Positions 1 through 28,840 of a stretch of 28,840 bases of DNA are shown piece after piece (positions within the stretch are counted from its first letter, which is position 1; the number at the start of each line of letters is the position of its first letter). This DNA comes from a virus (Duplodnaviria > Heunggongvirae > Uroviricota > Caudoviricetes). A model generated the notes under the pieces. It was not told the origin of the DNA and ran no database searches. It was given only the letters and a program-made list of their open reading frames with translations. The translations under genes and the position numbers were made by a program. The stretch lies in IMG/VR virus record IMGVR_UViG_2609459848_000003. One strand, written 5' to 3'.

Positions 1-1850
1 AACAGGGGGATCTTTTCACCGCTGGTACCGAGTTCTCTTAAACCAAGGTATTGGATAACGGCCAGTGTGCTTGTTTTAGCCAGAATATCGCGACCGACTG
101 ACGTTAAATCAGTCTGAGCTACCGTATCCTTACCAGTGAAATAAGGCAGTTTGTTTGCACCAGTCGCAAGGGCAGCGAGAGCGGTTAAAGTTGCATCCAG
201 AGGCTGTTTGCCTGCCAGCGCATTTGTCATTGTTGTCGCAAAGTTCGGGTCATTGCCAAGTGCTGCGGCAAGCTCATTCAGGGTATCAAGAGCTTCTGGT
301 GATGAACCAACCAATGCGGATATGGCAGCTCTTACATAAGCGGTCGTAGCAATCTGCGTGTTATTCGTACCCTGTGCAGCGGTAGGCGCAGTAGGGACAC
401 CCGTTAATGCAGGGCTTGCCAAAGGCGCTTTGAGAGCCAAGGCATTGTTGATAGTTGTGCTGTAATTCGGGTCGTTATTGATCGCAGCAGCTATTTCTTT
501 AAGCGTATCCAGTGTGCCAGGCGCACCGTTGATAAGTGCAGTTATAGCTGCCTTAACAAAGGCTGTATTTGCGATCTGCGTGTTATTCGTACCCTGTGCA
601 GCGGTAGGCGCAGTAGGTATTCCCGTTAATGCAGGACTTGCTAAAGGAGCTTTAAGAGCCAGAGCATTGTTGATAGTTGTGCTGAAATTCGGGTCGTTAT
701 TGATCGCAGCAGCTATTTCTTTAAGCGTATCCAGTGTGCCAGGCGCACCGTTGATAAGTGCAGTTATAGCTGCCTTAACAAAGGCTGTATTTGCGATCTG
801 CGTGTTATTCGTACCCTGTGCAGCGGTAGGCGCAGTAGGTATTCCCGTTAATGCAGGACTTGCTAAAGGAGCTTTAAGAGCCAGAGCATTGTTGATAGTT
901 GTGCTGAAATTCGGGTCGTTATTGATCGCAGCAGCTATTTCTTTAAGCGTATCCAGTGTGCCAGGTGCACCGTTGATAAGTGCCGTTATAGCTGCCTTAA
1001 CAAAGGCTGTATTTGCGATCTGCGTGCTATTTGTACCTTGCGCTGCCGTCGGCGCGGTTGGCGTTCCTGTCAGACTCGGGCTTTCTATTGGCGCTTTGGT
1101 ATCAGCCAGATCTTTTATAGACTTAACAGCTTTAGGGGTAGCCGCCATTGTTTCGCTGTCGCTGTTAGTTGCGCTACTGAGCTGAACTAATCCCTTTTGC
1201 GTTGTGCTTGCATCCTGTGCCGTATACTTGCTTTTCGCCAGATCGTAGGCTTTTTTAACTGCCAGCGAACTTGCAGCAACATCACTTCTGGTACTGGTTA
1301 CAGAGTCTGAAATATCAATGCCGATCGAGCGGTTGATACGCTCGGATGTATCAATCATCTCCTGGGTAATGGCAGATACACTAGCAGGGATATTCACCGT
1401 ACAAACAAGCAGCTCCCCATCTCCTAACTGATATGAATCGGTATAGGTTCTGGCAACAAATTCAGCCGCATGAATATGTGACGCGGTATTCACCTGGTAG
1501 GTATCTTCTCCAAGGAGGTATCTTCCCTTCAGCACAATTGCATATTTCTTGCCTGCACTAAGTGCAAGAGAAATATCCTTACGTTGCTGAATAGTTACCT
1601 GGTAAAATTCACCAATATCCACCGACGCCGCGCCTGCGGTTTTATCACCATCCACTGAGGTAATTAACAGGTTCATCCCACCGCCAGGCTTAGGTAAGAA
1701 ACCGGCATAAAATCCCGGGTCAACAATCCCCCTGAATTTTCGGTTTAGCGCGGCTGACAGATATGGTTCGTGGTATTGCACATCGGCCACCAGAGCCAAC
1801 GACTCGGATGATGGGTAAGTAACCGATGTAACAACTGTAACGTCATTCAT
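1..1850 (-). CDS. Tail fibre protein, N-terminal/constant part (P1 S-like); 3' end runs off the window start
   Basis: Minus-strand frame open from ATG at 1850 (SD AAGGA upstream) to position 1; frame checked at 1-120 and 900-1200. Translation MNDVTVVTS... and later ...QKGLVQLSSATNSDSETMAATPKAVKSIKDLADTKAPIESPSLTGTPTAPTAAQGTNSTQIANTAFV, typical of myovirus tail fibres. Not in the ORF track because it is truncated by the window edge. Confidence 0.75.
   Translation of the reverse strand, partial: MNDVTVVTSVTYPSSESLALVADVQYHEPYLSAALNRKFRGIVDPGFYAGFLPKPGGGMNLLITSVDGDKTAGAASVDIGEFYQVTIQQRKDISLALSAGKKYAIVLKGRYLLGEDTYQVNTASHIHAAEFVARTYTDSYQLGDGELLVCTVNIPASVSAITQEMIDTSERINRSIGIDISDSVTSTRSDVAASSLAVKKAYDLAKSKYTAQDASTTQKGLVQLSSATNSDSETMAATPKAVKSIKDLADTKAPIESPSLTGTPTAPTAAQGTNSTQIANTAFVKAAITALINGAPGTLDTLKEIAAAINNDPNFSTTINNALALKAPLASPALTGIPTAPTAAQGTNNTQIANTAFVKAAITALINGAPGTLDTLKEIAAAINNDPNFSTTINNALALKAPLASPALTGIPTAPTAAQGTNNTQIANTAFVKAAITALINGAPGTLDTLKEIAAAINNDPNYSTTINNALALKAPLASPALTGVPTAPTAAQGTNNTQIATTAYVRAAISALVGSSPEALDTLNELAAALGNDPNFATTMTNALAGKQPLDATLTALAALATGANKLPYFTGKDTVAQTDLTSVGRDILAKTSTLAVIQYLGLRELGTSGEKIPL
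139..1100 (-). repeat. Tandem 222-bp (74-codon) coding repeats inside the tail-fibre gene: three near-identical copies (361-582, 583-804, 805-1026) flanked by diverged copies
   Basis: The string ttattcgtaccctgtgcagcggtaggcgcagtagg recurs at 361, 583 and 805 (period 222, a multiple of 3). Minus-strand repeat unit encodes ...APLASPALTGIPTAPTAAQGTNNTQIANTAFVKAAITALINGAPGTLDTLKEIAAAINNDPNFSTT. Confidence 0.85.
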
Positions 1851-1861
1851 CAAGCATATCC

Positions 1862-2296
1862 TTATGCTGTAGTCGTGTTTATGGCCATAACTGCGGTATA
1901 TGTTTTGCCCACATACAGCGAGTCTTCCTGGACACAAATAATGGCGATTGGCTTGTTCTCGTTATCCAGAACAACCAGAGTGTTGAATGGGTAGTTTTTC
2001 CCTTCCTGCAACTGGCTTTGATCAAGGTCCATTCGGACAGTAATTATCCCGCCTGAGTAGGTTGGGACGAGGTTGATGGTGCAAAATTGACTGGTCAGTT
2101 CTGCCAGTTCGAAAGCCTTTGGCAGTTCTCCAATCTCATAAGTGCCATCTCCTTTCTTAGTAACCAGCGAACTGGTACCGAAAACGGCCTTGCTGATTAA
2201 AAATCGAGAGCCTTTGTTAATGGACGATTCAGCGCGCCGCTGATAGTAATAGTCCAACAACTGACTCTTATAGAGGTTTGTTGAGACGTCAGACAT
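1862..2296 (-). CDS. Tail fibre-associated structural protein (144 aa; possibly P1 R-like)
   Basis: ORF immediately upstream of the tail-fibre gene on the same strand (stop 1862, fibre start 1850). No motif recognised; assignment by position only. Confidence 0.4.
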   Translation of the reverse strand: MSDVSTNLYKSQLLDYYYQRRAESSINKGSRFLISKAVFGTSSLVTKKGDGTYEIGELPKAFELAELTSQFCTINLVPTYSGGIITVRMDLDQSQLQEGKNYPFNTLVVLDNENKPIAIICVQEDSLYVGKTYTAVMAINTTTA

Positions 2297-2374
2297 GATT
2301 TTCCCTAATCAATGTTGTGAAGCCTCATTGTAAGATAAGTAACTTGTCACCCCGCCCTGCGGACGGGGTGATTA

Positions 2375-3214
2375 TCAGGCATCACTATCCAGCAGCAAAT
2401 CATCTGCGCGGGTGCGATCAAACGTAGGCGTTGCTTTCACAATAGTGCCGCCCGGCGTTGCAGTGATCGGAGCGCTAATCGACGTAACTCCAGTAAGCGA
2501 AGTTGTATCCGAAGTTTCAAACCAGCAGTACGCTTTTTCGGTATCAGAAATCTCGTTCAAAGTGATCATGTCGGCGTGTTCATTTACAACAACCGACAAA
2601 TAGAGCGTAAGCCCATCAAACACTATATGCAGTGGCAGTAGAGGCTTTACGAACTGATTAAACTTTCTGAGAATTTCTTCTGTAATTGCGGACTGATCTA
2701 TCGTGCCAGTAATCCCCATTGTCCGGGCCAGGTCGTTTATGGGAATACTGATCATCCCTCTGGAAGTCAGAAACATCTCGCCGAATGTGCCGCCGGTAGT
2801 CTCCAGTGTGCTTTCAGGTATTAGAACCGTGCCATAGGGATGACGCTCAAGGTCCACCGGTGCATATATCGGATCCCATAAAACAGAAATACCGTTAAAT
2901 TCGCGGTAAATTGTCTGGTTTATAGGGCGTTCAGTCCCCTTAAAGTGAATCTCATCAAGACGCTGTTGTAACAACATCGGAACGGAAGATGAGTTCGACG
3001 TTCTGATAGTAAAGAACTGGCCAAGTTCATTTGTCCTGGTCTCCAGATCCTCCTTGCTCATGGAAAAAATAGACTTCCGGTTGGTAATTCGCTCCAACCA
3101 TGGGTCAACAAAGGTATCCATCATTGACTGAACCAAATCAGCCAATGATTTATAGAGCAATGACTTTTGCTTAGCTGATGTAAGCCGGTTATTAAACCAG
3201 GAACGCTGCATCAC
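2375..3214 (-). CDS. Baseplate/tail structural protein (279 aa)
   Basis: In the chain of ATGA-overlapping ORFs (3211-3214 overlap) between the Sit-like gene and the tail fibre; no motif recognised. Confidence 0.4.
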   Translation of the reverse strand: MMQRSWFNNRLTSAKQKSLLYKSLADLVQSMMDTFVDPWLERITNRKSIFSMSKEDLETRTNELGQFFTIRTSNSSSVPMLLQQRLDEIHFKGTERPINQTIYREFNGISVLWDPIYAPVDLERHPYGTVLIPESTLETTGGTFGEMFLTSRGMISIPINDLARTMGITGTIDQSAITEEILRKFNQFVKPLLPLHIVFDGLTLYLSVVVNEHADMITLNEISDTEKAYCWFETSDTTSLTGVTSISAPITATPGGTIVKATPTFDRTRADDLLLDSDA

Positions 3215-4644
3215 TCCTCCTCATACGAAATATTAAAGGTGGAGTTTTCTGTATCCAGATAAACGAAATCGTAAAAGCCATTGGACTCATTCCACTCGAC
3301 AAATTCCAGATAAAAGTCGCGGAAATAACCCAGCGTTTCGATAAATGCCCAAACGTCTTTTTTCTTAATCAGGATGTACTTGCCGACACGGTTCGGATCA
3401 AAGAAAGTTGAGTCACGCCCAAATTTTGTTTCCAGTGCCGACTTCAGCTCATCAGTCACGTTCTCAATGGTCAGGCTTGCCGATATCCGCCCGGTGATGG
3501 TGATCTTAAAGGGTAGTTTTCTGACCTCTTTATACGAGAATTTCTTGTTCAACTCATTCGGCACCTTCTTAAAGGCAGCCAGGATCATTTCTTCAAGCTC
3601 TGACTGGCTTTTATTTGGATGCCACCCTGAAATAAATATCTTATTGATATTCCGAACATTATAAGCACCATCTAATTTCTCTTGCTGGCCTTCGCCCCAT
3701 GCCTTTACCCAGGACAGTCCCGGGATGTTACGCACCAGAAAATACGTATAGTCCCCGCCCCATACGACCTGATCATCATAGGCAAGGTAATATTGTGCAC
3801 GGTTACGTGTGATCTCCGTTGTTTCGGCATCGGTACCTGCGGTTATAGGTGTCGTTGTCTTAACTGAAATCAAATTAGCTAAATTAGCCGCAGAATCGAC
3901 AGGCGTCAGGTTTTGGCCAGCAACCAGGGTTATATCGCCGTTGGTGCACCATACCTTAAGCGTAATTGTCGAGCCTTCTGGCGGTATTTGCCCAATTAGC
4001 CCATCGCCGAATCGAACCCCCAACTGCTCGGATGGTTTATAAAACTCAACGTAGACCTGGCTTTTACTACCGGCTAACCGGAACATAGTGCTGGAAGACC
4101 ACTGCGTGGTCTTACCATCGGTCGTCACGAATACTTCCAGCTTATAGCAGACAGCAGTGAGAGCCTTTGATAACACGACTTCCAGAAATTCTTTGGCTGC
4201 CGTAACGGTATATGTCACCTCCTGGATTTCCAACTGTGCCACTTCTACCGTACCGGTGCCGTCAACCAACCTGCATACATCCATAGTCATGTAAGGGTAC
4301 TGGTCGTCAGATATTAAAGGCATGTTTTTGGGGATTACCGCTGGGGCATCTTCACTTGTGGCGGTGATCTCAATCATCCCCGATGACGGTGTTGGCTTGG
4401 TACCAACGTAACTATTCGTTTCTGCCGCTGCCAGGATAGAGGAACGCCGCGTCGCGGTCGATATAAAGCCTTCAGCCAGCGCCGCATCGGCATACTGAAA
4501 GCACCTGTAGACAATCTGGGTAATAAACAATGTCAGCATCGAGACAAATTGAGAGCCGACAAACTTTGACCAGAATGAATCTTTCTCGACAAGCTCTTCA
4601 AACTCTGCACGAATACTGTCTTTAGTCGGTGTTGTTTTACTCAT
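3211..4644 (-). CDS. Baseplate protein (477 aa; possibly BplA-like)
   Basis: 4-bp start/stop overlaps with both neighbours (translational coupling); size and position fit a baseplate wedge protein. Confidence 0.4.
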   Translation of the reverse strand: MSKTTPTKDSIRAEFEELVEKDSFWSKFVGSQFVSMLTLFITQIVYRCFQYADAALAEGFISTATRRSSILAAAETNSYVGTKPTPSSGMIEITATSEDAPAVIPKNMPLISDDQYPYMTMDVCRLVDGTGTVEVAQLEIQEVTYTVTAAKEFLEVVLSKALTAVCYKLEVFVTTDGKTTQWSSSTMFRLAGSKSQVYVEFYKPSEQLGVRFGDGLIGQIPPEGSTITLKVWCTNGDITLVAGQNLTPVDSAANLANLISVKTTTPITAGTDAETTEITRNRAQYYLAYDDQVVWGGDYTYFLVRNIPGLSWVKAWGEGQQEKLDGAYNVRNINKIFISGWHPNKSQSELEEMILAAFKKVPNELNKKFSYKEVRKLPFKITITGRISASLTIENVTDELKSALETKFGRDSTFFDPNRVGKYILIKKKDVWAFIETLGYFRDFYLEFVEWNESNGFYDFVYLDTENSTFNISYEEE

Positions 4645-5000
4645 AGCACCACGTCCTGTGTGATAGTTATATCCCTGATACGAATGGATATTTTCAACTT
4701 ATCAAAAGCATCTCCCTCGGCTACTGACAAGCCAGAAATCGGTATGTCAGGTAAATCTACCGTCAGTTTTTGCAACAGCATTGCCTCAACCGCAATTTGA
4801 ACATGCGACAAGTTGGTCGGTTCGTGTTTAAACTGCGGTAAAACATTGCCCCATGACGGATCTCCGTATACCTCACCCTGATAAGTGTTTAGCCACTCAT
4901 ATAAACGAGCGCCCCAGGCCTCCTCCTGGGACTCATACGTTTTTACGCCGGATAACTCCAGCGTCAGCAAAGGATCAATTTCATTATTGTTGGCCATCAA
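4641..5000 (-). CDS. Small tail morphogenesis protein (119 aa)
   Basis: ATGA overlap with the Sit-like gene upstream and the 477-aa gene downstream. Confidence 0.4.
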   Translation of the reverse strand: MMANNNEIDPLLTLELSGVKTYESQEEAWGARLYEWLNTYQGEVYGDPSWGNVLPQFKHEPTNLSHVQIAVEAMLLQKLTVDLPDIPISGLSVAEGDAFDKLKISIRIRDITITQDVVL

Positions 5001-8000
5001 TCAACTCTCGCGTAGTCATTCATCAACGGATCATCAATTGACAGTGGCACCGTGCGCATAACGCCCGGTTGAGGCGTGCTGACCTTTACGACAGTTCCCT
5101 GGCCTTTCGCCGAGTCTTTAGTGTGCTCTTCAATCCTGGCAAGCAATGAGGTCATCTGCGCAAACAGCCGCTTCGTTTCACCATCAAGTGAAACGGTATT
5201 ATCAGCCAACTGCATTGTCGGCTTGGCACCGGAGCCGCCAAGGTCACTAATAACCTGTCCGTCTATCTGCATACGACCGGTTGGTTGCTGCAAATCGTTG
5301 GCGGCAGTCGTCACCTGGGACGTGGAGGCTGGTTCAGGCGCATTATTTTTCCGCATCCCCGGCGAGTTGCGGAGTTTATCGAATAGTCCATCAATCCCCA
5401 TTTGTGCGCCGAGTTGGTCAAAGTAACTTGAGTTGCTGGCCACCGGACGCGCCTCTTCAACTGGCATCGGAGTATCAACATACACATTGCCAGCTGCTGT
5501 TGCGGTCCCCTTCCCTCGTGCACGTTCTTCGAGCGTTCCCTGAACGACTTCCCGACGCATACCCCGGCCATTCATGAATTTGTTGACCAGATCGTTAACG
5601 CCAACAGCATTGCCGATTTTGTCTACCAGACCGCCTTTCTCAAACGGGCTATCACCAGGGGTAAACGCCAGACCAGTAGACTGATCGATAACGGCGTTAT
5701 CAGGCAGTGGTCCCCTCACTCCATATTGCGCCCCACCCTGTGCTCCTGCCCCAGGTGTATAGATTTCACCACCTAAATAGCGAGCACGATGAGTATTGAC
5801 CTTGATCGCGTACTCACGGTTTTCCTTCGATAAGTCACCGGTGCCTTTTTTCCACTTATTAATAGTGCCAAACCCAGCGTTATATGCAGTGATGGCCTCG
5901 TTTAAGTCTCCATTGGCTTGCTTCAGATACTTGCTCATGAGAAGAGCCGCAGCTTCTGCCGATTTCACAGGATCAAACGATTCACCTTCAGCTAAGCCAG
6001 TCTCTTCACGAGCAATGCCCGTGAACTGAAACATTCCTAGAGCACCAGTTTGTGATTTTGCGTACGGATTACCACCAGATTCAGTTGCAGCAATCGCGTA
6101 AAGAGTGCCTTCAGGAAGACCATATTTATTCTCCAGTTCAGCAAAATACGGAGCCAACTTATCGAGATTTGCCTTACCTTCAGCGCCAAGACTTCCGACT
6201 TTTACATCCAAGTTGCCATTGTTGTAGGTATCCGCAGCTTTCTGAATGTCATTCCTGGTGCCAGTGGTATTAAGCGACGATGATGACGAGCTATTTTGAC
6301 CAATAGCTTTATCAATTTTCTGCAACGCGCTATTGCCCGTTTCTACGGCATTTGCATTGATAATCTGATTGGCAGTTTGTTTTACTGTTTTATTGCTATC
6401 TTTCGCCGTGTCCAGTGCCGCATTTATCACGCGGGTAGCAATATTACTCTGTTTGGCATCGGATTCAGTTTTAGAATTAGACGTCTCCTGGTGGCTATTA
6501 ACCGGAGCTTTTAACTCTGGAGTGATTTCTTTCGCATTAGCCTCGCCGATTGGATTGGGTATTTTTGATACAATCATTGCCGCAGGGGTATTTTTAACGG
6601 CATCAACCGCTGCATCTAATGCTTTACCGGGTAAATTTTTAACCCCATCCCAAATATTACCAGCCGCCTCTTTAATGTGTTTCCCTGGGTTCTTAATGAA
6701 ATCAATTGCACTATCAATTGCATCACTGAAAACCTGTTTCAGGTTATCAACAGTAAAGAAGTCTTTGATAGCATCCAGCTTTTCAAGCAGCTTATTAGAT
6801 GTATCGCTAAACCATGCTGAAACAGCATCACCAATCTTTGCTGTGTAATCATCGAACTTGGTAGAAATGGTGTCGCCAAGGTTAGAAATATATGTTTCTA
6901 AGTTGGTAATCCCACTATCAATGGCCTGGGCAATACTTTCCGTCGAAAATGATTGCAACATATTACCGATATCCTCAAATCCAAGTGATTTGAGAACATC
7001 ACCAATAGCACTGCTAATACCAGATACCAGTCCCCCCATATCAAGAACATTGGCTAACGTATAAGCGGCTTTTTGCTGGAATGATGGATCTTGTCCTGAT
7101 TTAAGCCCAAACGCTCGACGTTGAGCTTCTGTATCATTCCAACCGGTTACCGCATCATAAATACCTCCAGCCACTGTGCCGACTAGGGGAATTGCGCGTA
7201 ACGCCCCTTTACCAACTGCCTTTAATCCAAGTTTACCTGCTGCCCGGGCAGCCAAATCTCCGCCTTCATGGGCGAGAGTCTTCTTGCCACCACCGCGTAG
7301 CATTCCTACAAGTTTCTTTGCCCCCAGAGCGCCAAAAGCGAGTGCTCCAGCTTTTTTCAGCATGCCACGCCCCATTAACAACGACGCGACGCCACCGGCC
7401 CCCTTCCCTAACAGGCTAAATAGTTTGGACAGCAAGCCGCCCTTCTTTTTACCGGTGTTTTTGGCTATCTGATCAAGGGCGCGGAGAATCTTGTCATTGC
7501 CCTCTTTAATTTCGCTGGTCTGCTCCTGAAGTTCCTGAACCGTCCGTTTTTGGGTGTTAACCTGAACGACATCGGCACTATTTTGCGATTTACGCCTAAA
7601 AAAACCTTTTCTACGGCTGTTATCGTCATTGCCACGAATCACATCGGCAATAGACTTTCTGGCACCATTAAGCGATCCACCAACTTCTTTTGATATCCCG
7701 CCAAGCTCCTTCCCTGCTGCCCACAATGGACCAGCAACGGCATAACCTAACGCATCGACAGCACGAGTCTCTGAAGGGTTGCCTATGCCTTCAGCTACTT
7801 TTGACAGTTTTTTTAATAAACCTGATTCAGCATTTAGACGCTCATCATCCTCTTTGCGCCTGGCCTTTTCAGCACGTTCAGCACGGGCATCTTCCGCTGC
7901 GGCCTTACTCCCTGACTTTCCAATAAAACGACCACGCGCATCGCGTTGGTTTTGGCTTTTTTGCGCACCGCCTTTTTGACCGAACATTTCGCGAGCGTGT

Positions 8001-8389
8001 TCGGCTGCTTCGGTCCGTTGCGCCTTTACATCTTCTGTTATAGCCTTCTTGCGTCGTTTTTTACCCTTTCGCGTAGTTGATTTGGCCTGCGGTTCCTGTA
8101 GAGCAACATCCTCCTGAACTACACGAGGAACGTCCCCTAAATTAAGCCGTTTCATTGCCTCAACAATAGGGTCCACTGATGGCGCATTGGCCACAAAGTC
8201 TGGCCGGGAATTTTCGATTGTGCGATTTAATGCCGACACACTGCGAGAGACAGGATCAACTGTAGCAACTCGCCCCCCTTTCAAATCTTCAACGGCTTCC
8301 CGAATACCTGCAAGCTCTTCCAGCTCTTTTGCGCTGGCGGTTTCAACCGTCCTTATCACATCGTCAATATTGGCGTTTTTTCTTTCCAT
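4997..8389 (-). CDS. sit: Structural injection transglycosylase / tape-measure-like protein (Sit-like, 1130 aa)
   Basis: Soluble lytic transglycosylase motif LYAIAATESGGNPYAKSQTGALGMFQFT; glycine-rich hydrophobic segment (KKGGLLSKLFSLLGKGAGGVASLLMGRGM...); long charged low-complexity N-terminal half; size close to the approximately 1140-aa P1 Sit as I recall it. Confidence 0.8.
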   Translation of the reverse strand: MERKNANIDDVIRTVETASAKELEELAGIREAVEDLKGGRVATVDPVSRSVSALNRTIENSRPDFVANAPSVDPIVEAMKRLNLGDVPRVVQEDVALQEPQAKSTTRKGKKRRKKAITEDVKAQRTEAAEHAREMFGQKGGAQKSQNQRDARGRFIGKSGSKAAAEDARAERAEKARRKEDDERLNAESGLLKKLSKVAEGIGNPSETRAVDALGYAVAGPLWAAGKELGGISKEVGGSLNGARKSIADVIRGNDDNSRRKGFFRRKSQNSADVVQVNTQKRTVQELQEQTSEIKEGNDKILRALDQIAKNTGKKKGGLLSKLFSLLGKGAGGVASLLMGRGMLKKAGALAFGALGAKKLVGMLRGGGKKTLAHEGGDLAARAAGKLGLKAVGKGALRAIPLVGTVAGGIYDAVTGWNDTEAQRRAFGLKSGQDPSFQQKAAYTLANVLDMGGLVSGISSAIGDVLKSLGFEDIGNMLQSFSTESIAQAIDSGITNLETYISNLGDTISTKFDDYTAKIGDAVSAWFSDTSNKLLEKLDAIKDFFTVDNLKQVFSDAIDSAIDFIKNPGKHIKEAAGNIWDGVKNLPGKALDAAVDAVKNTPAAMIVSKIPNPIGEANAKEITPELKAPVNSHQETSNSKTESDAKQSNIATRVINAALDTAKDSNKTVKQTANQIINANAVETGNSALQKIDKAIGQNSSSSSSLNTTGTRNDIQKAADTYNNGNLDVKVGSLGAEGKANLDKLAPYFAELENKYGLPEGTLYAIAATESGGNPYAKSQTGALGMFQFTGIAREETGLAEGESFDPVKSAEAAALLMSKYLKQANGDLNEAITAYNAGFGTINKWKKGTGDLSKENREYAIKVNTHRARYLGGEIYTPGAGAQGGAQYGVRGPLPDNAVIDQSTGLAFTPGDSPFEKGGLVDKIGNAVGVNDLVNKFMNGRGMRREVVQGTLEERARGKGTATAAGNVYVDTPMPVEEARPVASNSSYFDQLGAQMGIDGLFDKLRNSPGMRKNNAPEPASTSQVTTAANDLQQPTGRMQIDGQVISDLGGSGAKPTMQLADNTVSLDGETKRLFAQMTSLLARIEEHTKDSAKGQGTVVKVSTPQPGVMRTVPLSIDDPLMNDYARVD

Positions 8390-8470
8390 GATCTTATCGC
8401 CTACCGTTTCGGTTTAAGTTTTTCTTCCAGTTTCTCCAACAGGAAAAACGCATAGGATTCAGTAAGCCTT

Positions 8471-9352
8471 TCAGCGTCCTGAATCGGTATACCCCCATAC
8501 AAAACCAGGTTGGACACTAAGGTCTGATAGCTTTTCAATCCCCACCTGTGGAATGAAGTCGGTAGCCCGAAAGGGCACCCACAGACGGGTATATGCACCC
8601 TCTGTGGACTCCTTTTTATCCTGATTTGGGCATTTATGCGGCGGGAGACGAAGACGCATTTCACCTTTATCGATGTAGCACGGTAAACCATGTTCGAGCT
8701 TTTCATGAGCCAGTCGGATGTGTGCCGCCAGCTTCATAAATTCAGTATCAATGGCCATCCGTTTAATCGTTTCATAACGACGCTCAGCCTGATCTTCACG
8801 AGTACCGCTAACATCGTTATAAAGCTCACACTGATAAGCGAATTCCCAAAAACGCAAATCAACGATCGCTTCTTTGAATTCCGCGTCGTCTTCAGGTGGC
8901 AATGCTGCACGGCGCATCTCCAGCATTTCCATTGCCCAACCATCAAGCGGCACGATACGCCATTGATAAGGTACTCCCTCTACAGACACCTCAATATCGT
9001 CAATGAAAGGTTCCACTTCCAGGACCTGGATATCTTCAGCCAGAGCATTCATATCGCAATCGTAATAATGCTCTTTACCGCAATGTTTACAGGTGTAGGT
9101 GAATGTCTCGACCGGTGTTTCACGGGAGCCGGTAAATATCCACCATAACGCGGTAATCCGGTCCTGCGCCGTCCATGTCAGGGGATCATGTTTCGCGGGT
9201 TCAGCAAGCAAGGCTTTTAAATACGCCGTTGTCTGTTGTTCTTGTTCCTCCGGTGTTATCGAGTTGAAACGCATCGCATCAGCAATATTTGGCTGACGGA
9301 ACTGGATCAATTCAGTTGGCCGCGATGGTAGCGGGAAAAGAGGTAAAAGCAT
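8471..9352 (-). CDS. Phage morphogenesis protein with CxxC...C motif (293 aa)
   Basis: ORF with ATG start; contains CKHCGKEHYYDCD. The 3' end sits at a C5/G5 run with a protein-like out-of-frame extension (see findings). Confidence 0.45.
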   Translation of the reverse strand: MLLPLFPLPSRPTELIQFRQPNIADAMRFNSITPEEQEQQTTAYLKALLAEPAKHDPLTWTAQDRITALWWIFTGSRETPVETFTYTCKHCGKEHYYDCDMNALAEDIQVLEVEPFIDDIEVSVEGVPYQWRIVPLDGWAMEMLEMRRAALPPEDDAEFKEAIVDLRFWEFAYQCELYNDVSGTREDQAERRYETIKRMAIDTEFMKLAAHIRLAHEKLEHGLPCYIDKGEMRLRLPPHKCPNQDKKESTEGAYTRLWVPFRATDFIPQVGIEKLSDLSVQPGFVWGYTDSGR

Positions 9353-9366
9353 CCTTGCTCCTTAAT

Positions 9367-9978
9367 TCAAAGAGAAAAGCTAAAGCCCAGAAGGGAAGCC
9401 AAAGAACTTGAGGATTGGTTAAACGTGCTGTGCAATGCGAAGGTCATTGGGAATGACTTAAATTCAGTAACCTGATCTCGCGCATAGGTGACATCGCCGG
9501 TAGTGACCGGGAATACCGTCATCTCATTTTCCAGTTTGGTTAAGCCGGAAGACAGCAACCGATAAATACGCACATTGAGCAAATATTTAGACGGTATATT
9601 CCCGGTACCGTCCGGATTGATCACCCGACTTTTTGCCGTCTTAAACCAGTCCAAAACGAGGCCATCAACGGTATCCCTGACCATCATTGTTATCTGCCCA
9701 GGCGAACGCTCCGTTGGTTGAAGGATATTCCCTCCGCCGATTTTAATCGTTTCATATTCGATGCTGTAATCGTGGTAGGTAATGTCTTTGGCAAAGAAGT
9801 CTGCCCCCTCCAGTCCATCAACTTCGACAGAGAACTGCCATCCTTGCGCGAACAGCATTTTGTTCATGATGATTGACGTCAGCTTACCAACTTCCCGCTC
9901 ACCAACGCCGGAGCCAAATAATGTCGTCGTTAATGCCGAAGATACATAAGACTTTACTGAAGCAACATTAAGCCCCAT
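9367..9978 (-). CDS. Tail structural protein (203 aa; tube- or baseplate-associated)
   Basis: Position within the tail operon; no motif recognised. Confidence 0.35.
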   Translation of the reverse strand: MGLNVASVKSYVSSALTTTLFGSGVGEREVGKLTSIIMNKMLFAQGWQFSVEVDGLEGADFFAKDITYHDYSIEYETIKIGGGNILQPTERSPGQITMMVRDTVDGLVLDWFKTAKSRVINPDGTGNIPSKYLLNVRIYRLLSSGLTKLENEMTVFPVTTGDVTYARDQVTEFKSFPMTFALHSTFNQSSSSLASLLGFSFSL

Positions 9979-9988
9979 ATCAGCCCCC

Positions 9989-10579
<591 letters not shown>

Positions 10580-10635
10580 TTAACAGATTCTACGAGTTGT
10601 CATTTGTGACAGTATGCTCGCAATCGTAGTGATTA

Positions 10636-11175
10636 CTACCACCAACTGCTAGCTTTCTTCTCTCTAGCTTTTCCTTCGCTTTGCAGTAAATCTTTACTTC
10701 CTGTAGAAATATTTCTATTTGCATCAGCCTCAGACTGAATTACATCTGTCTTAGCTGCTCTCTCCTTCAACTCCTGCTCTATAAAATCGTTTTCTCGCTG
10801 GACACGAGCCGCTTTTGCTTGCAGTTCGAGTTTCATGCTTTCGAGTTGCAGCTTGCGAAGCTCATCCTCATAAGCTTGATCTCGCTTCTTGTCATTTGCT
10901 AGCTCGGCTTCTCGTTTCGCTCTACGTTCATTTTCTGCAGCAACACGCTGTTTTTCGCGTGCAGCAGCGGCAGATGCTGCTTTTTCTCTTCTAATACGTT
11001 CAGCTTGTGCTTGTTGGCGAATAAGTTCTTTTCTGGCATCCTCAGCTTGCTGCTCTTTAGCTCGCCCTTCATTTTCCGCTTGAGCAATAGCAGCAATTTG
11101 ACTTTGCAACGAGTTAGCCAAGGCAGTGCCTACACTAAACGTAGAAAAGATTAGAAATAAAATAATTTTATTCAT
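10636..11175 (-). CDS. Secreted charged coiled-coil protein (179 aa)
   Basis: N-terminal signal peptide MNKIILFLIFSTFSVGTALA, then a long E/R/K/A/Q-rich predicted helix (TolA domain II-like composition). Stop-to-start distance from the lipoprotein gene is 3 bp. Confidence 0.6.
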   Translation of the reverse strand: MNKIILFLIFSTFSVGTALANSLQSQIAAIAQAENEGRAKEQQAEDARKELIRQQAQAERIRREKAASAAAAREKQRVAAENERRAKREAELANDKKRDQAYEDELRKLQLESMKLELQAKAARVQRENDFIEQELKERAAKTDVIQSEADANRNISTGSKDLLQSEGKAREKKASSWW

Positions 11176-11178
11176 AAA

Positions 11179-11700
11179 TTATTTCTTTTCTGGACAAGTA
11201 GCATTTGGCTGAATTCGAGTTTCATTATCTTTAGTTGAAATAAGCACAGCAAGCCCCGTTGTAAACTGGCATGCTTTACCAACTTGAGTTGAAGTGAACA
11301 CCTTAGTTCCTTCTTTATAAGTCAGTGAAACACCTTCAACAATTGTTTTATCACTAACCAAAGAACCAGCCGCTGCACCAAGAGCCGCACCACCAGTACC
11401 GCCAGCTACAGCACCCAGTGTCGATGTGCCTTTAACATTATAACCGGCAACGCCCCCAGCAACAGCTCCCAGTACCGCACCAAATGTCTGTGCCGCTTCT
11501 TTATTAGCTTTATTATCAACTTTCACTTTAGCTGGAAGCACAGAGATAATATTGACTGTCTTTGTTTCCTGCTTCGAATTCAATTGAGCGGTATCATAAA
11601 CATCGGCAGCATAATCAGCACCGCTAGATTGACACCCAGAAAGAAGAATTGCAGATACAACAAGAGCGCATAAAGTATACTTTTTAGACATAAGAATCAT
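11179..11700 (-). CDS. SlyB/Pcp-family outer-membrane lipoprotein with glycine zipper (173 aa)
   Basis: Lipobox LLSGC after a hydrophobic signal; ADVYDTAQL motif and glycine zipper GAVLGAVAGGVAGYNVKGTSTLGAVAGGTGGAALGAAAG resemble E. coli SlyB as I recall it; downstream GVSLTYKEGTKVF resembles the SlyB beta region. Confidence 0.65.
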   Translation of the reverse strand: MILMSKKYTLCALVVSAILLSGCQSSGADYAADVYDTAQLNSKQETKTVNIISVLPAKVKVDNKANKEAAQTFGAVLGAVAGGVAGYNVKGTSTLGAVAGGTGGAALGAAAGSLVSDKTIVEGVSLTYKEGTKVFTSTQVGKACQFTTGLAVLISTKDNETRIQPNATCPEKK

Positions 11701-11981
11701 CCCAGAAAAACAAAAACCGGCGAGAAGTTACCACGAGAACGGAAAGTAAACAAGAATACTCCCATTGACTTATATCAATTAATCAACTTTTTATAAGCTA
11801 TCCCTAACTTATTGTGTATAGCTGAAAAGTCAGAGACAAGTTCACCATCTGCATTATTTCTTAAGTTAATAGTTTATTGCTAACTTAATTTATGCATCGA
11901 CTATTGATATCCATCTTAAAGTTACAATATCCCTCTGCATTATTTTTCATCACAAATAATATATCTATTGCACGACACTAA

Positions 11982-11998
11982 TCTGCTCTAATAAATTT
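11982..11998. promoter_or_regulatory. C1 repressor operator-like site (Op51-like)
   Basis: TCTGCTCTAATAAATTT matches the remembered P1 C1 operator consensus ATTGCTCTAATAAATTT at 15 of 17 positions; lies in the AT-rich divergent promoter region upstream of c4-icd-ant. Confidence 0.55.
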
Positions 11999-15404: not shown

Positions 15405-15639
15405 TAGATTGCTCTAATCTGGAGTCACCTGGCGTTTTCAGTATGGATTTTCTTTGGCGCGGTCTGGCCATTAGGGATCATGTTTGCTGCAACATTTCTT
15501 CTGATGTGGATATTCACCCTTCCCGGTGATTTCTATAGAAAAAAAGCCAGACATTGATACAATCGTTGCGGGTGCTTGAGGCTATCTGCTTCAGGCATTA
15601 CCCGAAAAGCAGATAGAAGAAAGCCCCAGATAACATTAA

Positions 15640-15720
15640 GCGTCCTGCAAGACGCTTAACATTAATCTGAGGCAATATCTATGCTTAGCATACGTAGATT
15701 AGCCTCTTACCGACCAAAAG
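15640..15720 (-). ncRNA. sok: Sok-like antisense RNA (approximate position)
   Basis: Inferred from the hok/mok architecture; the leader GGGTGCTTGAGGCT...AGCCTCTTACCG...CAAGGAGAAG resembles the R1 hok mRNA leader from memory. Exact ends not determined. Confidence 0.3.
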
Positions 15721-15887
15721 GTCAAGGAGAAGCAGGCTATGAAGCAGCAAAAAGCGATGTTAATCGCTCTGATCGTCATCTGTTTAACCGTCATTGCGAC
15801 GGCACTGGTAACGAGGAAAGACCTCTGCGAGGTACGAATCCGAACCAGCCAGACGGAGGTCGCTGTCTTCACAGCCTACGAATCTGA
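15681..15887 (+). CDS. mok: Mok (modulator of killing) reading frame overlapping hok
   Basis: 68-aa ORF starting 58 nt upstream of hok and overlapping it in another frame, as in the hok/mok/sok arrangement. Confidence 0.55.
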   Translation: MLSIRRLASYRPKGQGEAGYEAAKSDVNRSDRHLFNRHCDGTGNEERPLRGTNPNQPDGGRCLHSLRI

Positions 15888-15894
15888 AAGGTAA
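15739..15894 (+). CDS. hok: Hok/Gef-family type I toxin (51 aa)
   Basis: Hand translation MKQQKAMLIALIVICLTVIATALVTRKDLCEVRIRTSQTEVAVFTAYESER; SD AAGGAG 9 nt upstream. Close to Gef/HokC and Hok of plasmid R1 ([28 protein letters not shown]). Below the 60-aa cutoff of the ORF track. Confidence 0.85.
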   Translation: MKQQKAMLIALIVICLTVIATALVTRKDLCEVRIRTSQTEVAVFTAYESER

Positions 15895-15971
15895 GAGACC
15901 TGGCGTGGAGAGATCCCCGCCACTCTTCGTGTGTCAGGTATCCTCAATGCACCCTTTCCTCTCCAAATAAA

Positions 15972-21459: not shown

Positions 21460-21545
21460 AAAACAGGCGTGAAACCGTGGGAATTTCAGCCTGAAATTTT
21501 TCATGAATATCTATATATATCATATATTTATACATGAAATAGACG
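21460..21545. promoter_or_regulatory. parS: parS-like partition site: box-A-type heptamers flanking an AT-rich IHF-like core
   Basis: GTGAAAC (21469-21475), ATTTCAG (21483-21489), TGAAATT (21492-21498) and TGAAAT (21535-21540) resemble P1 box A (ATTTCAC) in both orientations around atatctatatatatcatatattta, which fits the IHF consensus WATCAANNNNTTR with one mismatch; immediately downstream of parB. Confidence 0.55.
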
Positions 21546-21596
21546 CGGGACATTTTAGACAGGGGAGGGGGCTAAAGCCGCCTCCCACCAGCGGGA

Positions 21597-22562
21597 TTAT
21601 TCCCCAGCAGACATTTTCCCAATGATTTTTTTTATTGCTTCGTCAATTTCAGTTTGCACTTCAGACGGGAGTCTGGAGAACTCGTAGGCGACAACCCGTT
21701 TTTTCGGATCGGACTTCTTTCGGGCATATTGGCGACGGTCAGAGAAGTCTCGCAGCTTCTCAACCACCACAGATTTAACCGGCGCGGGCTTCAGGCTTTT
21801 GCTTTCCGCTTTGAAGATAGCCAGTATCTTCGCTTTATCCTCTTTCGCGCCCTCAGTCTCTGCAATTCGTTCGCGCACCGTATCAACCAGCTCTTCAATC
21901 GGCACGCTTTTAGCGTTAGCATCCTCGGCGATCTGGAGCAGTAACTGGTAATCTGGAAGGGCGAGATCGCTGGCTACGGGGAAGACAGCAATCATCTCAT
22001 CCGGCACCGCGGCAGCCTGGAAAGCTCGCGTCACTTTAGCCTTTGAGATGTTCTCAGCTCGGGCGATCTCTTCTTTGGTCATATTCTTACCGTACATAAC
22101 CTCGAAGCGTTTACCCAGCTCGCGCAGAGTGTGTTCGCGGGCTGTCTGGATATCAATGGCCAGCTGGCGGGCATCCGCCAGGCTGATCTCATCTTTCGTC
22201 ACCAGAATCTCAAATTTCGTTTCATTGAAGATACACGCAGCACGGCGACGCGATCCGTCCAATACCTCAATGCGCTCCCCAACCATACGACCGATAGCCG
22301 GGAAGAACTGTTGCAATTTAATGGTGCGGGAAATATCGCTTACCGACTCAGGGGTGAGCAGAGACTGATCGCGGCCGTTAACTGCCGGGTCAACGAACGT
22401 GCGCGACTCAATCTCACCACTCAGCACGACGGTAAGCAAGAATTTAGCCTGGCGGCCAGATTTTAGGGTAAAGGTTTTGGTGCCTTCACTGCCTTCAAGC
22501 ATGCGAGCAAACTCGGAGCTATTCTTGCCCAGCACTCGTCCACGGGAAACTATTTTTTTCAT
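21597..22562 (-). CDS. parB: Partition protein ParB (321 aa)
   Basis: Family resemblance to P1 ParB from memory (e.g. GRQA, VDGSRRRA, KAKVTRAFQAA, DYQLL); 4-bp overlap with parA. Confidence 0.85.
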   Translation of the reverse strand: MKKIVSRGRVLGKNSSEFARMLEGSEGTKTFTLKSGRQAKFLLTVVLSGEIESRTFVDPAVNGRDQSLLTPESVSDISRTIKLQQFFPAIGRMVGERIEVLDGSRRRAACIFNETKFEILVTKDEISLADARQLAIDIQTAREHTLRELGKRFEVMYGKNMTKEEIARAENISKAKVTRAFQAAAVPDEMIAVFPVASDLALPDYQLLLQIAEDANAKSVPIEELVDTVRERIAETEGAKEDKAKILAIFKAESKSLKPAPVKSVVVEKLRDFSDRRQYARKKSDPKKRVVAYEFSRLPSEVQTEIDEAIKKIIGKMSAGE

Positions 22563-23770
22563 GCCGCCTCACCCCTAACAAACTCAATTCGATCAAACAC
22601 AGCCTTAGTGAAACGCTCGGCCTCGGTTCGTGCCTTCTTCAGCGCCTCTGCACTGCCTGGATACGATTGCGGGTTGGCACTGATTACGGTGTCGAAAGAC
22701 TCGCCGCATCGCTCAAAGCCATCCAGACGAGGCAGAGAAGAGTCCAGAATGTTGCTGGCGTAAACCTCACGCGCAAGGCTGTGTGATGTCTCGTGATCGC
22801 GCTTGCCGGTCATCTTCGACATAAAACCAATGCTGGCGCTCAAACGCGGTTCTACGCCTTCCTCCTCCAGTTGCTCCAGCATTTCTGGCAGACGGGTGAG
22901 ATATTTCAGTGTTGAGTGGAAGTCAACCTGGGCTGGTGGGGTAGGGGTAAGCAGCAAATCGCTGGCCGCCAGACCGTTGAGCAGGAACGGATCCAGGTGT
23001 GGACCGGTATCAATAAAGATAAAGTCATAATCATCCGCAACACGATCAATGATATTGCGTCGAAGGATTTCGTACTGATTTTGTCCGGGAAGATGCTCTT
23101 CAACCAACTCTTTCCATTGGCTGGCAACAAAGCCATCGTCGATAGAGGCTGGAATCACGTCTACGCCAGGAACGATGGTCGGACGAATCACCTCTTTGCG
23201 TAGCGTCTCCGCGTCCAGGTCGTTCAGCATCGCCTGCGCGGCGGTTTCCAGGATGGAACCAATACTGTGAGTATGGTCGAGGAACATTGTGCTGGATGCC
23301 TGAGGGTCAAGGTCAATTACCAGAATGCGCAGATCGTGACGCAGTAAATCCTGATGCACACGCAGAGCGTGCGCCAACGTGACTGTGGAAACCGTTTTGG
23401 ATACGCCACCCTTCAGGTTTACGACAAAAATAACGTAAGGCGATTTGTGAATGTCGCGATATTTGGGGATCTTACGGTGGGCATAGATATCAATGACGTT
23501 CTGGATGGTCAGCGCGTACTGTTCAACGTTACCGACCTGTTTCTTGTTGAACTGGTACCCATCATCTTCCATCTCTTTGATGGCCTGCTCCACAATGCGG
23601 CGGCTCAGCTTCGGCAACTTTGCCACAGCGTTACGAGTGAACGTCTGATAATACTCGGTCTGATTGAACTCTTTGCGCTGATCTTCAATATCCTGACTCA
23701 TGGCCTTAAGTAATGCGCTTGCACGAAGAGCTATGGTGCCGACACCGCCGTAATCGCGTTTCATCATCAT
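22559..23770 (-). CDS. parA: Partition ATPase ParA (type Ia, 403 aa)
   Basis: Deviant Walker A VNLKGGVSKTVSTV; LRILVIDLDPQ; C-terminal PRLDGFERCGESFDTVISANP...AVFDRIEF close to P1 ParA from memory; an N-terminal extension typical of type Ia ParA. Confidence 0.9.
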   Translation of the reverse strand: MMMKRDYGGVGTIALRASALLKAMSQDIEDQRKEFNQTEYYQTFTRNAVAKLPKLSRRIVEQAIKEMEDDGYQFNKKQVGNVEQYALTIQNVIDIYAHRKIPKYRDIHKSPYVIFVVNLKGGVSKTVSTVTLAHALRVHQDLLRHDLRILVIDLDPQASSTMFLDHTHSIGSILETAAQAMLNDLDAETLRKEVIRPTIVPGVDVIPASIDDGFVASQWKELVEEHLPGQNQYEILRRNIIDRVADDYDFIFIDTGPHLDPFLLNGLAASDLLLTPTPPAQVDFHSTLKYLTRLPEMLEQLEEEGVEPRLSASIGFMSKMTGKRDHETSHSLAREVYASNILDSSLPRLDGFERCGESFDTVISANPQSYPGSAEALKKARTEAERFTKAVFDRIEFVRGEAA

Positions 23771-23813
23771 CTCCTTATCATTTCGTATGAGTGAATTGTA
23801 CGTTTGATTCTGC

Positions 23814-23856
23814 TACGTGCAACTTTTTTTGATTCGTGCGTCAATTATTGCACGTA
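23814..23856. promoter_or_regulatory. par operon promoter/operator inverted repeat
   Basis: TACGTGCAA (23814-23822) and its reverse complement TTGCACGTA (23848-23856) between parA and incA. Confidence 0.4.
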
Positions 23857-23878
23857 AAGAAATGGCGATGAGGCTATT

Positions 23879-26305: not shown

Positions 26306-26338
26306 AGCGTAAGCGTCAACGGAGCACCGTATTGACGC

Positions 26339-27952: not shown

Positions 27953-27982
27953 GACCGTTTTTATAATGCGGTCAGGAGTTTT

Positions 27983-28333
27983 TTACAACATTGTCAGTGA
28001 GTTACGGCTGGATGTTTTTGGCTGACGCCAGTCCAGCTTATCGAGGAGCATTGCCAGTTGCGAGCGGGTAATGGATACCTTGCCGTCACGTACCGCAGGC
28101 CAGATAAACTGGCCTTCCTCCAGGCGTTTGGTGAACAGGCACAGACCATCAGCATCAGCCCAAAGAATTTTGACGGTGTCACCCCGTCGGCCACGGAAGA
28201 TAAACAGGTGACCGGAGAAGGGATTATCATTCAGCACATGTTGTACCTGTTCTCCCAGTCCGTTGAAGGATTTACGCATATCGGTAACGCCGGCAACGAG
28301 CCAGATACGGGTACCTGATGGGAGTGAGATCAT
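27983..28333 (-). CDS. tnpB: IS66-family accessory protein TnpB (orf2, 116 aa)
   Basis: MISLPSGTRIWLVAGVTDMRKSFNGL...FIFRGRRGDTVKILWADADGLCLFTKRLE is the characteristic IS66 Orf2 sequence. Confidence 0.9.
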   Translation of the reverse strand: MISLPSGTRIWLVAGVTDMRKSFNGLGEQVQHVLNDNPFSGHLFIFRGRRGDTVKILWADADGLCLFTKRLEEGQFIWPAVRDGKVSITRSQLAMLLDKLDWRQPKTSSRNSLTML

Positions 28334-28755: not shown

Positions 28756-28840
28756 ACTTAGATGTCCGTCTATATCAGATGGGCGTCTAAGTTACCAATT
28801 CTCGTCTGATGGCTACATACGGCGGTCAGTTTACGCTTAC

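What the first reader, a model, noticed from the sequence alone, without database searches (positions are those of the whole stretch)
139..1100. Three near-identical 222-bp in-frame tandem repeats inside the tail-fibre gene
The fibre gene contains three almost perfect 74-codon tandem copies flanked by diverged copies, each encoding a shaft repeat unit. Such high nucleotide identity implies recent expansion. Unequal recombination would change fibre length in 74-aa steps, a possible way to tune reach to the receptor, and the repeats are also a likely site of assembly collapse.
Basis: seen in the sequence. Interest (0 to 1): 0.5.

Follow-up and report, generated by a model that had tools for sequence, protein, structure and literature searches.

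The report
Expanded shaft repeats in P1 tail-fibre gene
The tail-fibre gene of this P1-like phage-plasmid carries four copies instead of P1's two of a long-known 74-amino-acid repeat, an ordinary copy-number variant made by unequal recombination, and the newest copy still needs checking against the raw reads.

Summary
The window is a whole 28,840-bp draft contig of E. coli 2-474-04_S4_C2 and carries part of a P1-like phage-plasmid. Gene S (tail fibre, minus strand, start 1850) holds four in-frame 222-bp units at 192-1079. Three are alike (88-97% nt) and one is diverged (60-67%). Window 464-965 is perfectly 222-periodic.

These are the "repeated elements b1/b2" already annotated in the constant part of P1 gene S. 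P1 has two, phage phi456 has three, and this contig has four.

The variable-site mosaic shows that the extra unit U2 equals the 5' part of U3 plus the 3' part of U1. One unequal exchange or slippage within a 58-bp interval of a phi456-type array would give exactly this.

Among P1-like elements the copy number runs from 1 to 4. There are at least four independently derived four-unit arrays, and contraction products also exist. The repeats are therefore recurrently gained and lost, not old and fixed.

Two points remain open. A sibling isolate's contig is 100% identical except for one unit fewer, so within-sample polymorphism cannot be told from mis-assembly without reads. The effect on fibre length and adsorption is inferred, not shown.

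Low to moderate interest: a new allele of a known repeat.

The parts
3..1850 (-). Gene S (tail fibre), 5' part: the constant segment Sc plus the first 45 nt of the variable segment. The ORF runs off the left end of the contig (616 codons).
   Evidence: Translation. 95-99% nt identity to S of P1, phi456, RCS47 and SJ46. P1 annotation. Protein P0005 is identical and named tail fiber repeat family protein, partial.
36..55 (.). cixR, the site where Cin recombinase inverts the C segment. The crossover lies at about 45/46. The contig ends just inside the invertible segment.
   Evidence: Coordinates transferred from the P1 annotation (cixR at 36471-36490, crossover 36480/36481) using the alignment window 1 = P1 36436.
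192..413 (-). Unit U4, equivalent to P1 element b2. It is the diverged 74-codon unit at the 3' end of the array.
   Evidence: 60-67% identity to U1-U3. 22/222 differences from P1 b2 and 0 from phi456 unit 3.
414..635 (-). Unit U3, a hybrid unit: b2-type at unit positions 1-52 and b1-type from position 62 onwards. It is identical to unit 2 of phi456.
   Evidence: 0 differences from phi456 unit 2; variable-site table.
636..857 (-). Unit U2, the extra unit that distinguishes this contig from phi456-type three-unit arrays. It equals U3 at unit positions 2-113 and U1 at positions 172-221.
   Evidence: The window equals phi456 Sc, and the sibling contig, plus exactly 222 bp with no other difference.
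858..1079 (-). Unit U1, equivalent to P1 element b1. It is the first unit of the array.
   Evidence: 12/222 differences from P1 b1 and 0 from phi456 unit 1.
464..965 (.). A 502-bp block that is perfectly periodic at 222 bp (a 280-bp exact repeat at shift 222). It is the footprint of the most recent gain of one unit.
682..747 (-). Diagnostic 66-mer that occurs only in U2. It links G at unit position 113 with T at unit position 172, 59 nt apart. Its presence in raw reads would prove that the fourth unit is real.
   Evidence: unique in the gene; U1 and U3 each differ at one end.
1095..1262 (-). P1 repeated elements a1 (about 1095-1226) and a0 (about 1227-1262). These are Pfam Phage_fiber_2-type motifs that precede the b array.
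   Evidence: Coordinates transferred from the P1 annotation. PF03406 hits aa 215-254 and the isolated a1 peptide at 74 bits.
1862..2296 (-). Gene R (tail-fibre assembly or structural protein), directly upstream of S in the same late operon.
   Evidence: ORF. P1 annotation. PF26881 Phage_P1_tail_fiber_R.

Best explanation
The array is the 'b' repeated element of the constant part (Sc) of P1-type tail-fibre gene S. It is present here in four in-frame copies, against two in P1.

It arose in two steps.
1. An unequal exchange between b2 and b1, with the joint between unit positions 52 and 62, produced the b2/b1 hybrid unit. This gave the widespread three-unit allele seen in phage phi456.
2. A second unequal exchange or replication slippage between the hybrid unit and the first unit of a misaligned copy, with the joint within unit positions 114-171, inserted one more unit (U2).

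Each unit adds 74 residues to each chain of the trimeric fibre, on the shaft side of the cix site. The distal receptor-binding part, which Cin inversion swaps, is unaffected. The expected physical effect is a longer or more jointed fibre with unchanged receptor specificity.

What is shown: identity with the P1 b elements, the mosaic structure, and recurrent gain and loss among relatives. What is inferred: that the fourth unit exists in the DNA of this isolate, that fibres with it assemble, and that length changes.
For: Identity:
- S, R, gene 16, bplA, pmgA and sit are syntenic with P1 at about 97%.
- P1 records annotate b1 and b2 (222 bp each), a1 and a0 at the homologous place.

Copy-number series: P1 has 2 units, phi456 has 3 and the window has 4.

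Origin:
- The three phi456 units equal window U1, U3 and U4 with 0 differences.
- The whole phi456 Sc equals the window minus 222 bp.
- U2 carries U3 states at positions 2-113 and U1 states at 172-221.

Recurrence:
- A spread sample of complete E. coli genomes gave 27 records with 2 units, 2 with 3, 2 with 4 and 1 with 1.
- Four different four-unit mosaics exist: the window; KZ160272, which equals DBAAUE010000083; the complete plasmid NZ_CP021729; and the complete plasmid NZ_CP148988.
- Hybrid joints lie at two or more different positions, 41-47 versus 52-62.
- Contraction products exist. CP148442 has a single b1/b2 hybrid unit. SNHN01000019 has U1 plus a U3/U4 hybrid.

Three-unit fibres work: phi456 is an isolated phage, and the 1046-aa three-unit S protein sits on 63 contigs.

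An assembler should not invent U2 from a three-unit template. U1 and U3 share at most 58 exact bases, and U2 needs a new linkage of two SNPs 59 nt apart.
Against: - The contig is a draft whose two ends are repeats, cix and IS66. It was therefore probably assembled from short reads.
- U2 is also exactly what one extra traversal of a loop in a k-mer graph with k<=58 would produce.
- The sibling isolate 2-474-04_S4_C1 has three units and is otherwise 100% identical over 2047 bp.
- The window-specific U2 110-mer was not found in IMG/VR or JGI metagenomes, nor at 100% in 5,426 complete E. coli genomes.
- No structure of the b unit is available. The AF2 model had pLDDT 43 and Pfam has no model for the unit. 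The length effect is therefore an inference.
- The joint of the first step spans only about 9 identical bases. This fits slippage or illegitimate exchange better than RecA-type crossing-over.
Confidence: 0.62

Rival explanations
1. Assembly artefact. The isolate really carries the common three-unit (phi456-type) array. The assembler went once too often round the U1/U3 loop and created U2.
For: - The sibling isolate's contig is identical except for one unit fewer.
- U2 contains no base that is absent from U1 or U3 at the same position.
- The contig ends in repeats, as short-read assemblies do.
- The exact U2 haplotype was seen nowhere else.
Against: - U1 and U3 share at most 58 exact bases. Reads or k-mers of 60 or more would resolve a three-unit array unambiguously and give no support to the G113-T172 linkage.
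- Collapse is the usual error for tandem repeats. The three-unit sibling contig is therefore at least as likely to be the wrong one.
- The same 616-aa product is recorded under two NCBI accessions, on two contigs.
- Four-unit arrays exist in two complete plasmids.
Confidence: 0.3
2. Old, fixed repeats. The units are ancient paralogues kept similar by purifying selection or gene conversion, and the copy number is stable.
For: - U4 versus the other units is 60-67% identical with many synonymous differences. The b1/b2 pair itself is therefore old.
- b1 and b2 are present in all P1-like S genes examined.
Against: - Copy number differs between near-identical backbones, from 1 to 4.
- There are no substitutions across 502 bp of the periodic block.
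- Lineage-specific substitutions are shared by neighbouring units, for example KEAITAL in CP150020 units 1 and 2.
Confidence: 0.03
3. Real but neutral. Gain and loss of units is a mutational by-product of repetitive DNA and has no consequence for adsorption or host range.
For: - Two units predominate, and 1-, 3- and 4-unit alleles are scattered over backbones and C-terminal types.
- The same receptor-binding part occurs with 2 or 3 units (972 versus 1046 aa).
Against: - The three-unit allele is widespread across Escherichia and Salmonella (P0040 on 63 contigs). This could reflect either hitch-hiking or an advantage.
- Nothing here measures fitness.
Confidence: 0.5

Closest known systems
Repeated elements b1/b2 (with a0/a1) in the constant segment Sc of bacteriophage P1 gene S, as annotated in GenBank M81956 and NC_005856. 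From my own knowledge these come from the work of Sandmeier, Iida and Arber on the Cin/Min tail-fibre regions; the papers were not retrievable here.
   Same: Same gene and same place between the N-terminal domain and cixR. Same 222-bp unit. U1 is 94.6% identical to P1 b1 and U4 is 90% identical to P1 b2. The a1 and a0 elements lie upstream.
   Different: Four units instead of two. The two internal units are b2/b1 hybrids that P1 lacks.
Gene S of Escherichia phage phi456 (OR339795) and the widespread 1046-aa S proteins of P1-like plasmids
   Same: The Sc nucleotide sequence is identical to the window apart from one 222-bp unit. The same hybrid unit is present.
   Different: Three units. It lacks U2.
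Pfam PF03406 Phage_fiber_2 (phage tail fibre repeat), as in Mu S, P2 H and lambda Stf
   Same: The a1/a0 elements next to the array belong to it (97.8 bits for the protein). Lambda Stf and Mu S share that element.
   Different: The 74-aa b unit itself gets no PF03406 hit and no significant Pfam hit at all. It is a separate module that recurs in more than 30 PHROG tail-fibre families.
Length-variable repeat shafts of other viral fibres and intragenic tandem repeats of surface proteins. Examples, from my own knowledge and not tested here: adenovirus fibre shaft pseudo-repeats, yeast FLO/ALS adhesins, and the streptococcal alpha C protein.
   Same: In-frame tandem modules whose number changes by unequal recombination or slippage and scales the length of an extended surface structure.
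   Different: No sequence relationship. In those systems the phenotypic effect of copy number has been measured, whereas here it has not.
Cin/cix invertible C segment of P1, in the same gene
   Same: It is also a recombination-based way of varying the tail fibre. The cixR site lies only about 140 nt beyond the array.
   Different: Site-specific and reversible, and it swaps the receptor-binding C-terminus. The b array changes by homology-driven gain and loss and leaves the C-terminus untouched.

Membership tests
P1 gene S 'b' repeated elements (Sc) | Located in the constant part of gene S, downstream of R and upstream of cixR | tested here: met
   Synteny and coordinates against NC_005856.
P1 gene S 'b' repeated elements (Sc) | Unit length 222 bp, head to tail, in frame | tested here: met
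   TRF period 222 with 0% indels. 74-aa spacing of the motif.
P1 gene S 'b' repeated elements (Sc) | Sequence homology of the units to P1 b1 and b2 | tested here: met
   U1 versus P1 b1: 12/222 differences. U4 versus P1 b2: 22/222 differences.
P1 gene S 'b' repeated elements (Sc) | Preceded by elements a1 (132 bp) and a0 (36 bp) | tested here: met
   Window 759-10607 aligns with P1 at 97.6% and includes a1 and a0. PF03406 hit at aa 215-254.
Pfam PF03406 Phage_fiber_2 | The b unit scores above the family's gathering threshold (22 bits) | tested here: not met
   Isolated b units give no PF03406 hit. Only the a1 peptide does, at 74 bits.
Contingency-type intragenic tandem repeat (length-variable surface protein) | Copy number differs between otherwise near-identical genomes, with independent gains and losses | tested here: met
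   1-4 units. Four distinct four-unit mosaics and two contraction products.
Contingency-type intragenic tandem repeat (length-variable surface protein) | Copy number varies within one clonal population at measurable frequency | tested here: inconclusive
   Sibling isolates S4_C1 (3 units) and S4_C2 (4 units) are otherwise identical over 2047 bp. Both are draft assemblies and no reads are available.
Contingency-type intragenic tandem repeat (length-variable surface protein) | Copy number changes a phenotype (fibre length, adsorption, host range) | not testable with these tools
   Needs electron microscopy and adsorption assays. The AF2 model was unusable (pLDDT 43).

The most novel reading that the evidence does not exclude
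The b array may be a fast, homology-driven length switch for the P1 tail fibre that operates within a single host population. Two colonies from what the strain names suggest is one sample (S4_C1 and S4_C2) carry the same phage-plasmid with three and four units and no other difference. Across P1-like elements the number has gone up and down repeatedly (1-4). If both are real, gene S would combine two independent variation devices: Cin inversion for receptor specificity and repeat-number change for shaft length. Copy number might then be selected by the thickness of the host's LPS, O-antigen or capsule layer.
Probability: 0.15. Interest if true: 0.55.

Novelty: new member of a known kind. Interest (0 to 1): 0.25.

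Why it matters
P1-like phage-plasmids are common in Enterobacteriaceae: 545 of 5,426 complete E. coli genomes matched this region. They also spread resistance genes and are used as delivery vehicles.

The survey shows that the shaft of their tail fibre changes length in 74-residue steps, recurrently and independently of the receptor-binding tip. This gives a simple natural series (1, 2, 3 and 4 units on near-identical backbones) for testing how fibre length affects adsorption.

For annotation and assembly it is a practical warning. Copy number in this array cannot be trusted from short-read drafts. Beyond that, the finding is an allele of a repeat described decades ago.

Tried and rejected
- Structure of the unit. 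AlphaFold2 on aa 197-616 without an alignment gave mean pLDDT 43 and pTM 0.25. Only the periodic secondary-structure pattern is quoted (about 20 non-helical residues plus three short helices per unit). No fold search was run on it.
- Solved structures. Only weak, partial sequence hits were found. 9d93 'tail collar fibers gp4' matches aa 499-566 at E 4e-9. Mu S (5yvq, 8ju3) matches the a0/a1 region. I could not find the paper behind 9d93.
- Lambda Stf shares only the a-type element, not the b unit. The Ur-lambda fibre model therefore says nothing about the b unit.
- The original P1 papers on these repeats and the P1 genome paper are not held in the library. The GenBank annotations were used instead.
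- Exact scans for the window-specific U2 110-mer found nothing in IMG/VR or JGI metagenomes. Complete E. coli genomes gave no 100% match.
- The + strand ORF 478-1185 (235 aa, TTG start) was rejected as a gene. It is the antisense reading of the periodic array inside S.
- I considered counting all arrays of three or more units with a junction-specific BLAST query. I dropped this because the tool joins non-collinear pieces, so frequencies come from a 60-row spread sample only.

Full report
**What the window is.** The window is the complete contig JNRM01000036.1 (28,840 bp) of the draft assembly GCA_000704705.1, Escherichia coli 2-474-04_S4_C2. It is about 97% identical to bacteriophage P1 over the tail, baseplate and replication region. 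The genes, all on the minus strand, are:
- S (3-1850, running off the left end)
- R (1862-2296)
- gene 16 (2375-3214)
- bplA (3211-4644)
- pmgA (4641-5000)
- sit (4997-8389), and so on.

The left end lies 45 nt inside the Cin-invertible C segment, with cixR at about window 36-55. The right end (26308-28840) is an IS66-family element. Both ends being repeats indicates a short-read draft.

**Check of the observation.**
- Tandem Repeats Finder reports one array at 352-1055: period 222, 3.2 copies, 96% matches, no indels.
- The repeat finder gives three 300-nt copies spaced 222 nt.
- The longest exact direct repeat is 280 nt. In 200 shuffles of 1-2000 the maximum was 15 nt.
- Window 464-965 is perfectly periodic at 222 nt.

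Translation of the minus strand from 1850 gives an uninterrupted 616-codon ORF. In it the motif P[SA]LTG.PTAPTA recurs every 74 residues. This defines four units: U1 858-1079, U2 636-857, U3 414-635 and U4 192-413.

Pairwise nucleotide identities:

| Pair | Identity |
|---|---|
| U2-U3 | 96.8% |
| U1-U2 | 91.0% |
| U1-U3 | 87.8% |
| U4 vs the others | 60-67% |

Three corrections apply:
- The gene is on the minus strand.
- There are four units, with a diverged one on the 3' side only.
- On the 5' side lies a different, shorter element, not a diverged copy.

**What it is.** The P1 records M81956 and NC_005856 annotate 'repeated element b1' and 'b2' (222 bp each), 'a1' (132 bp) and 'a0' (36 bp) at the homologous place in the constant segment Sc of gene S. 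U1 differs from P1 b1 at 12 of 222 positions, and U4 from P1 b2 at 22 of 222. The repeat is therefore already known.

What differs is the number of units: P1 has two, phage phi456 has three and the window has four.

Pfam PF03406 (phage tail fibre repeat) matches the a1 element only. Isolated b units get no significant Pfam hit. They do recur in more than 30 PHROG tail-fibre families. No solved structure covers a b unit beyond a weak partial match to 9d93 gp4. A single-sequence AlphaFold2 model was unusable (pLDDT 43). It showed only a periodic pattern of about 20 non-helical residues followed by three short helices per unit.

**How the array arose.** The three phi456 units are identical to window U1, U3 and U4. 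The whole phi456 Sc equals the window minus exactly 222 bp.

At the 33 sites that vary among non-terminal units:
- U3, which equals phi456 unit 2, has b2-type states up to unit position 52 and b1-type states from position 62. This is the product expected from an unequal exchange between b2 of one copy and b1 of another.
- U2 has U3 states at positions 2-113 and U1 states at 172-221. This is the product expected from a second unequal exchange or slippage between U3 and U1, with the joint in the 58-bp identical interval 114-171.

No substitution has occurred in the 502-bp periodic block, so the second event is very recent relative to the 1-5% divergence between P1-like backbones. The first joint spans only about 9 identical bases. 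That fits slippage or illegitimate exchange better than RecA-type crossing-over. The tools cannot separate these mechanisms.

**Comparative survey.** In a 60-row sample spread evenly over 558 matching records from complete E. coli genomes, 32 records covered the region:

| Units | Records | Which |
|---|---|---|
| 1 | 1 | CP148442 |
| 2 | 27 | |
| 3 | 2 | |
| 4 | 2 | CP021729, CP148988 |

Among the 60 best matches, nine had three units and one had four. The plasmid collection gave the same picture. Among the 120 best protein hits, 3 had four units and about 70 had three. These include a 1046-aa protein seen on 63 contigs, which corresponds to the common 972-aa two-unit protein plus 74 residues.

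The variable-site patterns show four different four-unit mosaics:
- the window;
- KZ160272.1, identical to DBAAUE010000083.1;
- NZ_CP021729;
- NZ_CP148988.

Further points from the same tables:
- Hybrid joints lie at two or more positions (41-47 and 52-62).
- Neighbouring units share lineage-specific substitutions, for example KEAITAL in CP150020.
- Contraction products exist: a single b1/b2 hybrid unit in CP148442, and U1 plus a U3/U4 hybrid in SNHN01000019.1.

Units are thus gained and lost recurrently.

The a-type elements upstream also vary in number, with +100 aa and +200 aa variants. Many S genes lose homology to the window exactly at the array edges. The shaft is therefore modular in more than one way.

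**Is the fourth unit real in this isolate?** This cannot be settled without reads.

Against:
- Contig JOSL01000074.1 of the sibling isolate 2-474-04_S4_C1 is 100% identical over its 2047 bp except for one unit fewer.
- U2 contains nothing that is not in U1 or U3.
- U2 is also what one extra pass round a loop in a k-mer graph with k<=58 would give.
- The window-specific U2 110-mer was found nowhere else.

For:
- U1 and U3 share at most 58 exact bases. Reads or k-mers of 60 or more resolve a three-unit array and give no support to the new G113-T172 linkage, which spans 59 nt.
- Collapse, not expansion, is the usual tandem-repeat error.
- The 616-aa product is on record under two accessions and on two contigs.
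- Four-unit arrays exist in two complete plasmids.

I put the fourth unit at roughly 2:1 real.

**Function.** It is established for P1 that S is the tail-fibre protein, with an N-terminal constant part and a C-terminal part exchanged by Cin inversion (annotation). The array lies wholly in the constant part, about 140 nt upstream of cixR. Each unit therefore adds 74 residues per chain to the proximal or shaft part and leaves the receptor-binding end unchanged.

That this lengthens the fibre is an inference from position and from the repetitive, partly helical prediction. The rise per unit is unknown.

Three-unit fibres evidently work, since phi456 is an isolated phage. For four units there are only intact ORFs in complete plasmids.

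The same C-terminal type occurs with two or three units. Copy number is thus not tied to receptor type, and a neutral polymorphism remains fully possible.

**Verdict.** The finding is a real, well-defined feature and an already described kind of repeat. This contig carries a rare four-copy allele whose newest copy needs read-level confirmation. It does not support the adaptive interpretation. Novelty: a new member of a known kind. Interest: low to moderate.

Noticed in passing
window 1-55 and 26308-28840: Both contig ends are repeats. The left end stops 45 nt inside the Cin-invertible C segment, just past cixR. The right end is an IS66-family element: HTH orf 28330-28755, TnpB-like orf 27983-28333 and DDE transposase 26339-27952, all on the minus strand. 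It is inserted where P1 has ppfA/upfB.
   Followed up: partly
window 10607-11984, 15418-15969, 21500-23877: Three segments have no nucleotide homology to P1. The sim superimmunity region is replaced by ORFs with DUF5384 and a weak TraT-like hit. rlfA/rlfB are absent. parA/parB are a different allele, though ParA and ParB domains are present.
   Followed up: partly
proteins P0076 and P0068 (homologues of window 3-1850): The a-type (PF03406) elements upstream of the b array also vary in number in other P1-like S proteins. One variant has an extra 100-aa block and another has the block twice (+200 aa). The shaft therefore has a second length-variable array.
   Followed up: partly
window about 1104-1162 (edge of the array): Many S genes in complete E. 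coli genomes match the window only on one side of the array: 1104/1162-2300 in some, 1-1112/1154 in D6-like elements. The array edge is therefore a frequent mosaic joint between N-terminal and shaft modules.
   Followed up: no
NZ_JBUBIS010000002.1 50618-53809 (hit H90): An IS2 copy interrupts the S/R region of a P1-like plasmid from a chicken E. coli. The span is 1336 bp longer than that of a two-unit array.
   Followed up: no
window 478-1185 (+ strand): A 235-aa TTG-initiated ORF lies antisense to S and is itself periodic. It is a by-product of the repeat, not a gene.
   Followed up: yes
L007 (NZ_CP021729.1) 7211-10300: In the complete plasmid that carries another four-unit array, bplA and sit are annotated as frameshifted or incomplete. 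That element may be defective, or the record may carry long-read indel errors.
   Followed up: no
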